In this document: in pieces, positions 62,817 through 63,015 of the stretch | Position numbering within the stretch: position 1 is the first letter of the stretch | Layout of the letters: the number at the start of each line of letters is the position of its first letter | Source of the DNA: a virus | Direction: 5' to 3' (one strand) | Length of the DNA stretch: 64,000 nt | Virus record (IMG/VR): IMGVR_UViG_3300021256_000065 | The notes under the pieces: generated by a model | What the model saw: the letters and a program-made list of their open reading frames with translations, nothing else | Database searches by the model: none | What the model was told of the DNA's origin: nothing | Translations under genes and position numbers: made by a program

Positions 62817-62845
62817 TTGACAAACTCAAAAATTTTTTGTATAAT
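62817..62845 (+). promoter_or_regulatory. Consensus promoter driving the candidate ncRNA.
   Basis: TTGACA, 17-nt spacer, TGTATAAT. Confidence 0.55.
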
Positions 62846-62851
62846 ATAATT

Positions 62852-63010
62852 GTAAGAAATAAATATGCAGAAAGAGAGGTACGGTCCAATGGGCTAAACA
62901 ATTTTTGTAACCCGTGAATTAATGTAATTATGGAGGGCACTCCAATGGACAATGTAGCTTAAATATTTATTCTTTAACCGAGTCAAGCGAGGCAACTCGC
63001 TTGACTTTTT
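62852..63010 (+). ncRNA. Candidate structured small RNA between a consensus promoter and an intrinsic terminator.
   Basis: TTGACA (62817-62822), a 17-nt spacer and TGTATAAT (62838-62845) lie upstream. A GAGTCAAGCGAG/CTCGCTTGAC hairpin plus T-run lies at 62981-63013. Only a 10-codon ORF is present. Internal repeats TCCAATGGG / TCCAATGGA. It does not fold as a canonical tRNA. Confidence 0.35.
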
Positions 63011-63015
63011 TATTT
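62981..63015 (+). terminator. Intrinsic terminator ending the candidate ncRNA.
   Basis: GAGTCAAGCGAG-GCAA-CTCGCTTGAC then TTTTTTA. Confidence 0.6.

What the first reader, a model, noticed from the sequence alone, without database searches (positions are those of the whole stretch)
62817..63015. Promoter-to-terminator unit encoding a ~150-nt non-coding RNA candidate
A full consensus promoter and a strong intrinsic terminator bracket ~150 nt. The interval has only a 10-codon ORF and contains internal repeats (TCCAATGGG…TCCAATGGA) and GC-rich patches unusual for this genome. Given the recoding, I tested it as a suppressor tRNA but it lacks acceptor/T-arm features. It may be a regulatory sRNA, a riboswitch-like leader for the downstream polymerase genes or a non-canonical RNA.
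Basis: seen in the sequence. Interest (0 to 1): 0.5.

Follow-up and report, generated by a model that had tools for sequence, protein, structure and literature searches.

The report
Phage small RNA copying host ribosome-site motif
The flagged interval is a real, conserved, self-contained small-RNA gene of a gut or rumen phage, built from two copies of a ribosome-binding-site-like motif that also occurs, singly or in arrays, in non-coding units of over a hundred Clostridia species and matches no curated RNA family.

Summary
A 12/12 sigma-70 promoter (62817-62845) and a 12-bp intrinsic terminator (62980-63007) bracket a predicted RNA of about 160 nt. The unit is conserved in 34 distinct sequences from related 80-145 kb phage contigs. 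Its conserved blocks are 90-100% identical, against 66-76% at synonymous sites of the neighbouring polymerase gene.

It is not a tRNA, matches no Rfam family, and is not a leader of the polymerase gene. That gene has its own conserved promoter, other genes are sometimes inserted between, and one relative carries a second copy elsewhere.

The two "internal repeats" are two copies of one module: a Shine-Dalgarno-like purine run, the spacer GUAYRGUCCA (CUCCA in copy two), AUG or UUG, then a 2-5-codon mini-ORF. The same 19-mer core occurs in at least 120 genome contigs, nearly all Lachnospiraceae or other Clostridia. There it sits in promoter-to-hairpin non-coding units holding one to about nine modules.

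Only the terminator shows compensatory base changes, so the core looks like a linear recognition motif rather than a folded RNA.

Best reading, inferred and not shown: an abundant early trans-acting RNA that docks 30S subunits, or whichever host factor reads this module, in imitation of host RNAs. Function is untested.

The parts
62817..62845 (+). Promoter P1: TTGACA, 17-nt spacer, TATAAT. Member of the phage's early promoter family.
   Evidence: 12 of 12 match. Same extended consensus as promoters at 11716, 47373, 50410, 52590 and 58111. Conserved in all relatives.
62852..63012 (+). Predicted transcript of about 160 nt. The 5' end is inferred from the -10 box and the 3' end from the terminator T run.
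   Evidence: Inference. The nhmmer profile of relatives covers 62815-63015 (E 6e-57).
62858..62866 (+). 5' half of a possible A-U closing stem (AAUAAAUAU). It would pair with 62963-62971.
   Evidence: Both halves are nearly invariant. One G-U change is consistent with pairing, and 90-100% of cells are paired, but there are no compensatory changes.
62870..62897 (+). Module A. SD-like GAAAGAGAGG (62870-62879). 19-mer core AGAGAGGTACGGTCCAATG (62873-62891). Mini-ORF1 ATG GGC TAA (62889-62897).
   Evidence: SD duplex is -7.5 kcal/mol with 8-nt spacing, like the phage's own genes. A module HMM built from bacterial sites hits here at E 9.6e-9. In all 34 relatives an AUG or UUG is followed by 1-4 further codons and a stop.
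62898..62930 (+). Variable spacer. It holds a small hairpin, CCCGU (62911-62915) that can pair with AUGGG (62889-62893), and a variable linker.
   Evidence: Length and sequence vary. A longer hairpin is inserted in some relatives, with a G-C to A-U swap (L040 against L028). AUGGG:CCCGU becomes UUGG:CCAA in L029.
62931..62962 (+). Module B. SD-like GGAGGG (62932-62937). CUCC (62940-62943). Mini-ORF2 ATG GAC AAT GTA GCT TAA (62945-62962, MDNVA).
   Evidence: SD duplex is -9.8 kcal/mol with 7-nt spacing. The bacterial module HMM hits here at E 0.016. The ORF has 5 codons in 29 of 34 relatives and 3 in the other five. It resembles bacterial modules such as GAGGTACACTCCAAAGGAGACAGTAGCTTAAC.
62963..62971 (+). 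3' half of the possible closing stem (AUAUUUAUU), directly after the mini-ORF2 stop codon.
   Evidence: Retained in all relatives, at variable distance from the stop codon.
62980..63012 (+). Intrinsic terminator: 12-bp stem, 4-nt loop, T run.
   Evidence: Compensatory changes at 5 stem pairs across 34 sequences.
63001..63029 (+). Promoter P2 (TTGACT, 17-nt spacer, TATAAT) for the downstream genes. Its -35 box is the 3' half of the terminator stem. It bounds the RNA unit and is not part of the RNA.
   Evidence: 11 of 12 match. Conserved in all relatives. The same terminator-plus-promoter layout exists in distant relatives that lack the RNA.

Best explanation
The interval is an autonomous early gene for a small RNA of about 160 nt. 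The RNA is built from two diverged copies of a translation-initiation-like module. Each copy has a purine-rich Shine-Dalgarno-like run, 7-9 nt of conserved spacer (GUAYRGUCCA in copy one, ...CUCCA in copy two), AUG or UUG, a 2-5-codon mini-ORF and a UAA stop.

The same module is a widespread building block of non-coding promoter-to-hairpin units in Lachnospiraceae and other Clostridia, which are the likely hosts. There it occurs singly, in pairs or in arrays of up to about nine.

The most likely mode of action is in trans, through the module as a linear recognition site. It docks 30S subunits or initiating ribosomes, or another host factor that reads this 22-nt motif. The mini-ORFs merely release any ribosome after a few codons. 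By copying the host motif under a consensus early promoter, the phage would tap into or titrate whatever the host module RNAs control.

**Shown:** the transcription signals, purifying selection, independence from the polymerase gene, homology to the host modules, and a match to real initiation-site geometry.

**Inferred:** ribosome or factor binding, action in trans, and any effect on the host.
For: **Autonomy and selection**
- Promoter and terminator are present.
- There are 34 distinct homologues, with compensatory change confined to the terminator.
- Conserved blocks are 90-100% identical, against 66-76% identity at synonymous third positions of the adjacent pol gene.

**Not a cis element of pol**
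- P2 is conserved.
- Genes are inserted between the RNA and pol in L040, L041, L026, L032 and the window. L024 has a second copy in front of other genes.
- Relatives whose Pol is at most 72% identical have the same gene order without the RNA.

**Module family**
- The 19-mer core hits at least 120 genome contigs, nearly all Lachnospiraceae or other Clostridia, and at least 120 metagenome contigs.
- The units are intergenic: a promoter, then 1-9 modules at a period of about 52-70 nt, then a hairpin.
- An HMM built only from bacterial sites finds exactly the two phage modules in the 64 kb window.
- The phage RNA profile aligns over about 150 nt to the last two modules plus terminator of the bacterial array in L224.

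**Initiation-site geometry**
- SD duplex energies are -7.5 and -9.8 kcal/mol at 8- and 7-nt spacing. The median for the phage's own genes is -7.25 kcal/mol with a modal spacing of 6-9 nt.
- 72% of 240 bacterial modules carry AUG, UUG or GUG at the start position. ORF length after it is bimodal at 2-3 and 5 codons. This mirrors phage mini-ORF1 (2-5 codons, mostly 2-3) and mini-ORF2 (5 codons).

**Linear motif rather than fold**
- Core fold z = -1.75.
- Bacterial array fold z = -1.0.
- There is no covariation signal within modules.
Against: - No expression, ribosome-binding or phenotype data exist for any member.
- About 20% of bacterial modules have AAG, and about 8% other triplets, at the start position. 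Initiation itself therefore cannot be the universal requirement.
- SD pairing does not explain the invariant spacer GUAYRGUCCA. That points to a more specific, unidentified reader.
- The core helices are compatible with the alignment: 91% of cells are paired, against 28-48% for slid controls. A folded RNA is therefore not excluded.
- The sequences are so conserved that covariation has little power.
- The module may have been described somewhere outside Rfam 15 and the searched literature.
Confidence: 0.4

Rival explanations
1. It is a translated minigene RNA. The mini-ORFs (MG; MDNVA and its variants) are really translated, and translation itself is the function. Possible forms are peptidyl-tRNA drop-off as with lambda bar minigenes, a cis-acting pentapeptide effect on the ribosome, or ribosome occupancy that controls the adjacent 3' hairpin.
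For: - Both AUGs have strong SD sequences at optimal spacing.
- All 34 phage variants keep a start codon and a stop within 2-5 codons in both modules.
- L033 differs from L029 by a 3-nt insertion that keeps mini-ORF1 in frame.
- Synonymous AAT/AAC changes occur in mini-ORF2.
- Bacterial ORF lengths are bimodal at 2-3 and 5 codons. The 5-codon class shares an M-D-x-(I/V/A)-(V/A) pattern with the phage peptide.
- In bacteria the stop codon of the 5-codon ORF abuts a strong hairpin. It starts 0-4 nt from the first stop base in the 14 that met the strict criterion, and in the examples shown.
Against: - 28% of bacterial modules have no start codon yet keep the rest of the motif, including the in-frame UAA.
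- Peptide sequences and the last sense codon are not conserved, so no particular tRNA would be targeted.
- L032 and L190 carry a 1-nt deletion that shifts mini-ORF2 to a new early stop.
- In the phage the stop codon is 17 nt from the terminator stem, so ribosome control of termination is unlikely.
- No peptidyl-tRNA hydrolase or similar partner was found among the annotated window genes.
Confidence: 0.2
2. It is a structured, base-pairing or protein-binding small RNA. It folds into a closing A-U stem plus a three-way junction (GUCCA:UGGAC, AUGGG:CCCGU, GGAG:CUCC) and leaves GAAAGAGAGGUAC single-stranded as a seed. In this view the SD-AUG look is incidental.
For: - The minimum-free-energy fold uses all the conserved blocks.
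- 91% of cells are paired, against 28-48% when partners are slid.
- One-sided changes are mostly wobble-compatible (U-A to U-G in L028, L085 and L025).
- AUGGG:CCCGU changes to UUGG:CCAA in L029 and to a U-A pair in L013.
- RNAalifold alternatively predicts that the two CCAAUGG copies pair with each other.
Against: - No helix outside the terminator has robust compensatory change.
- Two mutually exclusive models fit equally well.
- The core is not more stable than shuffles (z = -1.75, with 9 of 200 shuffles as good).
- The same motif in bacterial arrays sits in unstructured A-rich RNA.
- No complementary CCATTGG target exists on the + strand in the window.
Confidence: 0.15
3. It is a DNA-level element of the replication module. 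The two CCAWTGG near-palindromes, in conserved surroundings next to the helicase and polymerase genes, would be protein-binding sites or an origin-associated, transcription-activated element rather than an RNA that acts as RNA.
For: - CCANTGG is an interrupted palindrome.
- Both copies switch together from CCAATGG to CCATTGG in L029, L033 and L217.
- The unit lies between a RecD-like helicase region and PolIII alpha.
Against: - The conserved features are strand-specific: SD-like runs, start and stop codons, and terminator orientation.
- Bacterial homologues always lie in the promoter-to-hairpin orientation and in varied genomic contexts.
- The spacing between the two copies varies from about 47 to 75 bp.
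Confidence: 0.07
4. It is a cis-regulatory leader or attenuator (riboswitch-like or leader-peptide type). It would set read-through from P1 into the polymerase operon.
For: - The unit lies upstream of pol on the same strand in all 29 pol-anchored phage loci where it was found.
- Short ORFs ahead of a terminator resemble leader-peptide attenuators.
Against: - The independent conserved promoter P2 overlaps the terminator.
- The terminator stem covaries, and no third segment covaries with it as an antiterminator would.
- The intervening genes vary, and L024 has a second copy.
- No Rfam riboswitch or leader family matches.
- The bacterial units are stand-alone.
Confidence: 0.05
5. It is either a decaying remnant of a former small early gene, carrying no function, or a non-canonical suppressor tRNA linked to the TAG recoding.
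For: - The promoter, leader, SD and ATG layout is the same as for ordinary early genes of this phage.
- The genome does recode TAG in its late genes.
Against: - The conserved blocks are far more conserved than synonymous sites.
- The same motif is conserved across Clostridia.
- No tRNA or tmRNA is detected.
- The CUA triplet is not conserved.
- The mini-ORFs end in UAA, not UAG.
Confidence: 0.03

Closest known systems
Lambda bar minigenes (barI, barII): SD + AUG + one sense codon + stop. Cited from my own knowledge of Hernandez-Sanchez et al. 1998; one search found related minigene papers.
   Same: A phage-encoded, strongly transcribed RNA that carries a Shine-Dalgarno sequence followed by an ORF of only 2-3 codons. 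Mini-ORF1 is AUG GGC UAA.
   Different: - There are two modules with a conserved 9-nt spacer and a second, 5-codon ORF.
- The motif is shared with host chromosomes.
- The last sense codon is not conserved.
- No link to peptidyl-tRNA hydrolase is known here.
STAB-SD 5' stabilisers of Firmicutes mRNAs, such as cryIIIA GAAAGGAGG. Cited from my own knowledge of Agaisse and Lereclus 1996.
   Same: An SD-like purine run near the 5' end of a transcript that is not used to make a protein. SD1 (GAAAGAGAGG) differs from the STAB-SD by one inserted base, and it lies about 20 nt from the predicted 5' end.
   Different: - STAB-SD is a single element in the leader of a real gene.
- Here the element is repeated, carries a conserved spacer plus start and stop codons, and forms stand-alone RNAs and arrays.
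Sponge or decoy RNAs with repeated short motifs: CsrB/RsmZ for CsrA, and RosA for RoxS.
   Same: A strong promoter, a terminator, no long ORF, little stable structure, and several copies of one short motif. Bacterial arrays hold up to about 9 copies and the phage RNA holds 2.
   Different: - The defining CsrA motif, GGA in hairpin loops, is absent from the most conserved part of the module (AGAGAGGUAYRGUCCAAUG).
- The binding partner is unknown.
Leader-peptide attenuators and pentapeptide minigenes: the cat and erm leaders, and the 23S rRNA E-peptide. Cited from my own knowledge.
   Same: A very short ORF with a good SD placed directly before a strong hairpin. This holds for the bacterial 5-codon modules. 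Pentapeptides that end in hydrophobic residues are also shared.
   Different: - There is usually no regulated gene downstream.
- In the phage the stop codon is 17 nt from the terminator, and an independent promoter follows.
- Many modules lack a start codon.

Membership tests
Any Rfam 15 family, including riboswitches, PyrR site, TwoAYGGAY, pRNA, 6S, tmRNA, ROOL and GOLLD | Score at or above the family's gathering threshold against its covariance model | tested here: not met
   There are no matches in the whole window at gathering thresholds. At E up to 10 on 62580-63100 only noise on the terminator appears. Sixteen bacterial loci and the L236 array also give no match at the module sites.
tRNA or suppressor tRNA | Cloverleaf with acceptor and T arms, and a conserved anticodon (CUA for a TAG suppressor) | tested here: not met
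   ARAGORN finds no tRNA or tmRNA in the window. The only CUA (GGGCUAAAC) is replaced in L002, L025, L040 and others.
Riboswitch or transcription attenuator of the downstream operon | The terminator competes with an alternative (antiterminator) pairing, and the regulated genes depend on the upstream promoter | tested here: not met
   The terminator stem covaries, but no third segment covaries with it. Conserved promoter P2 follows. The downstream genes vary.
Minigene (lambda bar type) | Shine-Dalgarno sequence at functional spacing, then a start codon, 1-2 sense codons and a stop | tested here: met
   Mini-ORF1 is AUG GGC UAA, with an SD duplex of -7.5 kcal/mol and 8-nt spacing. All 34 relatives keep an ORF of 2-5 codons.
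Minigene (lambda bar type) | Expression causes peptidyl-tRNA accumulation, with toxicity when peptidyl-tRNA hydrolase is limiting | not testable with these tools
   This needs expression in a pth-deficient host.
CsrA-type sponge RNA (CsrB/RsmZ-like) | Multiple GGA (ANGGA) motifs, mostly in hairpin loops | tested here: not met
   The invariant core AGAGAGGUAYRGUCCAAUG contains no GGA. GGA occurs only in some flanks, such as AUGGAC and AAGGAA.
Type III toxin-antitoxin antitoxin RNA (ToxI-like) | Tandem repeats followed, after a terminator, by a toxin endoribonuclease gene on the same strand | tested here: not met
   In the phage the next genes are a 52-aa ORF and PolIII alpha. Bacterial arrays are mostly followed by convergent or unrelated genes.
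Clostridia 'GGUAYRGUCC' module RNAs (uncurated family defined here) | Core motif RGAGGUAYRG(U/A)CCRAWG on the strand that runs from a sigma-70 promoter to a 3' hairpin, in non-coding sequence | tested here: met
   Module A matches the 19-mer exactly. An HMM built from bacterial sites hits modules A and B at E 9.6e-9 and 0.016 and nothing else significant in the window; the next hits are E about 6. Promoter and terminator are in place.
Clostridia 'GGUAYRGUCC' module RNAs (uncurated family defined here) | A common molecular function or binding partner of the module | not testable with these tools
   No experimental data were found.

The most novel reading that the evidence does not exclude
The module defines a previously undescribed class of Clostridia RNAs. 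These RNAs would be multivalent, largely unstructured docking platforms for the ribosome, or for a factor that binds initiation regions. They would be built from 1-9 initiation-site look-alikes with mini-ORFs. A clade of TAG-recoded jumbo-like phages has captured a two-module version. It expresses this from a consensus early promoter to hijack or jam that host circuit. That would be host-RNA mimicry acting at the level of translation initiation.
Probability: 0.3. Interest if true: 0.8.

Novelty: new variant of a known kind. Interest (0 to 1): 0.62.

Why it matters
If this reading is right, three things follow.

- **An uncurated RNA family.** The unit points to a sequence family shared by gut and rumen Lachnospiraceae and their phages. 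It is not in Rfam 15, and I could not find it in the searched literature.
- **A possible new mode of action.** The architecture is a strong promoter, repeated initiation-site look-alikes, 2-5-codon ORFs and a 3' hairpin. This suggests regulation or titration of ribosomes, or of a factor that binds initiation regions. That mechanism is barely documented in Firmicutes.
- **Host mimicry and host prediction.** It would be an example of a phage copying a host regulatory RNA. It also gives a practical handle for host prediction, here Lachnospiraceae, for a clade of uncultured, stop-codon-recoded phages.

If the reading is wrong, the finding is still a well-defined, conserved small transcription unit worth a Northern blot.

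Tried and rejected
- **Rfam.** Gathering and E-value modes on the window and on bacterial loci gave nothing.
- **ARAGORN.** No tRNA or tmRNA.
- **Cultured phages.** blastn of the unit against INPHARED gave only a 44-nt A/T-rich chance hit. The 4 kb around it hit only the pol genes of Enterococcus and Staphylococcus phages.
- **A wasted scan.** One viral-contig scan used a mis-spaced pattern and produced one chance locus, L017. L010, a GC-rich contig, carries a bacterial-type module rather than the phage unit.
- **Covariation.** Two alternative core structures were tested and neither is discriminated. Only the terminator covaries.
- **Conserved small protein.** None longer than 10 codons on either strand.
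- **CsrA sponge.** Rejected, because the core has no GGA.
- **Extended pairing with the 16S rRNA 3' tail.** GAGGU plus GGUCC could pair around a 2-nt bulge. However, the frequent GGACC variant breaks this, so it does not explain the conserved spacer. This is hand analysis of the sequences.
- **Other resemblances.** The PyrR site, TwoAYGGAY, the sarcin-ricin loop and the tmRNA tag region are resemblances from memory only. No model match supports them.
- **Type III toxin-antitoxin.** Rejected for lack of a toxin gene.
- **Link to recoding.** The ORF-gain metric on 5.8 kb loci is too noisy. TAG-as-sense gain is 0.15 in loci with the RNA and 0.07 in loci without it, but the TGA control is larger in both groups.
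- **Module occurrence elsewhere in the window.** None at real gene starts.
- **Literature.** Searches by keyword, by nucleotide string and by peptide string found no description of the module.
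Full report
**1. Observation.**
The sequence at 62817-63015 is as described.
- The promoter scan gives TTGACA-17-TATAAT at 62817-62845 with 12 of 12 matches.
- It also gives a terminator at 62980-63007: a 12-bp stem with 6 G-C pairs, a 4-nt loop and a T run.
- Only three 12/12 promoters occur in the 64 kb window. This one belongs to a recognisable family of early promoters with an extended consensus.
- With a start about 7 nt after the -10 box, the RNA would run from about 62852 to about 63012, or 155-161 nt.
- The 10-codon ORF (62865-62897) and the CCAATGG repeats at 62886 and 62942 are there.
- G+C rises to 0.305, against 0.14-0.26 around it.
- The fold z-score of the whole transcript is -4.6, but this is mostly the terminator. 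The core alone gives -1.75.

**2. Genome context.**
The window is an AT-rich (31% G+C) phage genome. Its minus-strand genes at 1-27.4 kb are full of in-frame TAG. The open frame 18061-27423 contains 85 of them. Most plus-strand genes of at least 150 codons between 28 and 64 kb have none, although several carry a few.

The unit lies in the replication region.
- Upstream is a RecD-like helicase (60386-61567).
- Downstream is a PHP-domain DNA polymerase III alpha gene that starts at 63215.
- Between the 147-aa gene (62140-62583) and P1 lies a frame that is open only if TAG is sense (62546-62806).
- Directly after the terminator comes a second promoter, TTGACT-17-TATAAT at 63001-63029. Its -35 box is the 3' half of the terminator stem.

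**3. Known families.**
- No Rfam 15 family reaches its gathering score anywhere in the window.
- At E up to 10 only noise on the terminator appears.
- ARAGORN finds no tRNA or tmRNA.
- No cultured phage in INPHARED carries the unit.

**4. Relatives.**
Exact-pattern scans and a search anchored on the polymerase N-terminus recovered the unit from IMG/VR and metagenome contigs. Some of these contigs are 118-144 kb long. This yields 34 distinct sequences.

The unit was found only in loci whose polymerase is at least 78% identical. More distant relatives (Pol at most 72% identical) show the same order, 147-aa gene then terminator/P2 then pol, without it. The unit is therefore a clade-specific insertion upstream of a pre-existing terminator and promoter.

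It is not tied to the pol start.
- Homing-endonuclease-like or small ORFs sit between the RNA and pol in L040, L041, L026, L032 and the window.
- L024 has two copies. Each follows a paralogue of the 147-aa gene, and the first precedes three unrelated genes.

Together with the conserved P2, this argues against a leader or riboswitch of the polymerase operon.

**5. Conservation pattern.**
Conserved blocks are 90-100% identical across the 34 sequences:
- AAUAAAUAU
- GAAAGAGAGGUA
- GUCCAAUGG
- GGAG..ACUCCAAUGGACA
- UUAA.UAUUUAU

Identity at synonymous third positions of the adjacent pol gene is 66-76%. The blocks between the conserved ones vary freely in sequence and length. This is purifying selection, not a decaying gene.

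Compensatory base changes are confined to the terminator, where 5 pairs show them. For the core, two models fit almost equally well:
- a closing A-U stem plus a three-way junction (GUCCA:UGGAC, AUGGG:CCCGU, GGAG:CUCC);
- the two CCAAUGG copies pairing with each other, as RNAalifold predicts.

Both models rest on nearly invariant columns. A few changes agree with local pairing, such as UUGG:CCAA in L029 and a U-A pair in L013. The evidence for a defined fold is nevertheless weak.

**6. What the repeats are.**
In the second sequence group the two repeats align over about 26 nt: GAGGUAUAGUCCAAUGGGCAUGUAA against GAGGUACACUCCAAUGGACAAUGUAA. They are therefore two copies of one module. Each copy has:
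- a Shine-Dalgarno-like run;
- 7-9 nt of spacer;
- AUG, which is UUG in both copies of L029, L033 and L217;
- a very short ORF that ends in UAA, or UGA in a few.

Mini-ORF1 has 2-5 codons: MG, MGN, MV, MGM, MYR, MGK, MCR, MGLE, MDGN, MYN. Mini-ORF2 has 5 codons in 29 of the 34 sequences (MDNVA, MDSVA, MDRIA, MDNVN and others) and 3 in the other five.

Measured against the phage's own genes, both AUGs have good SD sequences at normal spacing.
- Mini-ORF1: -7.5 kcal/mol at 8 nt.
- Mini-ORF2: -9.8 kcal/mol at 7 nt.
- The phage's genes: median -7.25 kcal/mol, modal spacing 6-9 nt.

No ORF longer than 10 codons is conserved on either strand.

**7. The module is a host motif.**
The 19-mer core of module A (AGAGAGGTAYRGTCCAWTG) matches at least 120 contigs in the one-genome-per-species collection. 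Nearly all are Lachnospiraceae or other Clostridia: Oribacterium, Lachnoclostridium, Pseudobutyrivibrio, Hungatella, Acetatifactor, Roseburia, Agathobacter and many MAGs.

It also matches at least 120 metagenome contigs. Of these, 25 are phage-type (29% G+C) and 95 are bacterial-type (42% G+C).

About 35 chance matches would be expected in 1.2e12 positions under uniform base composition. Three observations exclude chance:
- the taxonomic concentration of the hits;
- conserved bases outside the pattern;
- the presence of further, diverged modules nearby.

In bacteria the module lies in intergenic units in varied genomic contexts. Each unit has a sigma-70 promoter, then 1 to about 9 modules at a period of mostly 52-70 nt, then a strong 3' hairpin.

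Some bacterial modules are nearly the same as phage module B. One example is GAGGTACACTCCAAAGGAGACAGTAGCTTAAC.

An HMM built from bacterial sites alone finds exactly the two phage modules in the window, at E 9.6e-9 and 0.016. The phage profile aligns over about 150 nt with the last two modules plus terminator of the L224 array.

None of these bacterial sites is covered by an Rfam family. Literature searches by keyword, nucleotide string and peptide string found no description.

**8. Properties of the family.**
Of 240 bacterial modules:
- 135 have ATG at the start position, 36 TTG and 1 GTG;
- 48 have AAG and 20 have something else.

After ATG or TTG the ORF length is sharply bimodal: 75 have 2-3 codons and 53 have 5 codons.

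The 5-codon ORFs include MDEIA, MDEIV, MDAIV and LDSSV. Each of the 12 printed examples is followed at once by a strong hairpin. Where the strict hairpin-plus-T-run criterion was met (14 of 53), the hairpin begins 0-4 nt from the first base of the stop codon.

The phage RNA thus resembles a minimal bacterial unit, with a "short-ORF" module followed by a terminal "5-codon" module. It differs in that 17 nt, the 3' half of the A-U stem among them, separate the stop codon from the terminator.

A seven-module bacterial array is no more stable than shuffled sequence (z = -1.0). No covariation appears within modules.

**9. Interpretation.**
*Shown:*
- The interval is an autonomous, selected, early transcription unit.
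- It is made of two copies of a motif shared with the probable host group.
- The motif has the geometry of a real initiation site.
- There is no long ORF.
- No known RNA family matches.
- It does not depend on the polymerase gene.

*Inferred:*
- The module works as a linear recognition site for 30S subunits or initiating ribosomes, or for another conserved host factor.
- The phage RNA acts in trans, as a mimic or titrator of the host module RNAs.
- The mini-ORFs mainly serve to discharge ribosomes quickly.

I put about 0.9 on "autonomous RNA gene belonging to this module family". I put about 0.4 on the docking or mimicry mechanism.

There are two main weaknesses. SD pairing does not explain the invariant spacer GUAYRGUCCA. 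And about 28% of bacterial modules lack a start codon. The true reader of the motif may therefore be something other than the initiating ribosome.

**10. Rivals.**
- A genuinely translated minigene (0.2): bar-like drop-off, a pentapeptide effect, or ribosome control of the 3' hairpin.
- A structured base-pairing sRNA (0.15).
- A DNA-level element of the replication module (0.07).
- A cis attenuator of pol (0.05).
- A remnant gene or a tRNA-like RNA (0.03).

**11. Comparison with known systems.**
The unit works most like three known things:
- lambda bar minigenes;
- Firmicute STAB-SD stabilisers;
- multi-motif sponge RNAs.

It meets the sequence definition of a minigene. It fails the defining features of CsrA sponges, type III antitoxins, riboswitches or attenuators, and tRNAs. 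It belongs to no curated family. I file it as a new variant of a known kind: a small SD-bearing, minigene-like RNA. The more novel reading, a new class of ribosome-docking RNAs shared by Clostridia and their phages, remains open at about 0.3.

Noticed in passing
window 1-27423, minus strand (for example 18061-27423 and 12710-17794): The late or structural genes are full of in-frame TAG: 85 in one open frame of about 3,120 codons and 24 in another. Most plus-strand genes of at least 150 codons between 28 and 64 kb have none, though several carry 1-8. This indicates TAG reassignment confined mainly to late genes. No suppressor tRNA lies in this 64 kb window.
   Followed up: partly
window 62546-62806 (+): This frame has no listed ORF under the standard code. 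It becomes an 86-aa ORF if TAG is sense (MK-TAG-NVKN-TAG-NIQYN...), with two TAG codons near its 5' end. It overlaps the end of the 147-aa gene. It has no Pfam match. It is a TAG-containing gene inside the otherwise TAG-poor early region, immediately upstream of P1.
   Followed up: partly
window 47373-47540 (+): A second short unit opens with an early-type promoter (TTGAAA-17-TATAAT). About 110 nt follow with no ORF and a similar 5' GUAAAUAAGAU ... AAUAAUAUUUAUUU 3' arrangement. Then comes another promoter (TTGATT...TGATATAAT) for the next gene. There is no clear terminator and no module. It may be another small early RNA.
   Followed up: no
window 28139-37554 (+): A cluster suggests RNA or tRNA repair: a Thg1-like tRNA-His guanylyltransferase (29886-30713), an RNA ligase (35395-36666), an AAA_33 kinase-like protein (37060-37554) and two metallophosphatases (28139-28897, 34314-35147). 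An 830-aa protein with a vault MVP shoulder domain lies at 30765-33257.
   Followed up: partly
L247, L261, L299, L223, L235, L248, L322, L332, L334 (bacterial loci): A conserved RNA-like unit of roughly 330-470 nt in Clostridia starts, right after its promoter, with one module and a 3-codon ORF (MYK, MRK, MER). It contains conserved blocks such as CACGACGGUGUUACG and a long-range CCUUUUGC/GCAAAAGG pairing. It ends with a conserved 8-10-codon ORF (MLDIKSEQK-like) whose stop codon lies in the terminator stem. No Rfam family matched in the two of these loci that were scanned (L247, L334).
   Followed up: partly
L229, L233, L246, L222, L225, L221 (Hungatella, Lachnoclostridium and other Lachnospiraceae): A second conserved unit of about 450 nt has this layout: promoter GTATTGACAAAT..., a 5' module of the GGAGGUACGGACCACC type with no start codon, a central conserved UAUGACGAGAAAGUAU, then a 3' module with a 5-codon ORF (MDEIA or MDAIV) abutting a strong hairpin. 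GGACC in the 5' module is complementary to GGUCC in the 3' module.
   Followed up: no
L064 and L079 (relatives with Pol about 67-72% identical), upstream of pol: A gene upstream of pol reads ...AI-TGA-LGQN-TGA-KD..., where a homologue in L094 has W (VWLGQTWKEIMPEV). Some relatives of this phage group may therefore read TGA as Trp rather than recoding TAG.
   Followed up: no
L024 801-1000 and 2235-2446; L040 1779-2489; L041 1093-1749: L024 carries a duplication of the pair formed by the 147-aa gene and the RNA unit. In L040 and L041, ORFs that look like GIY-YIG homing endonucleases from their N-terminal motifs are inserted between the RNA unit and the polymerase gene. This was not checked with Pfam.
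   Followed up: partly
window 63001-63029; L078 and L087 upstream of pol: The -35 box of the polymerase-operon promoter is embedded in the descending arm of the preceding terminator. This layout is also present in distant relatives that lack the RNA, so it predates the insertion of the RNA unit.
   Followed up: partly
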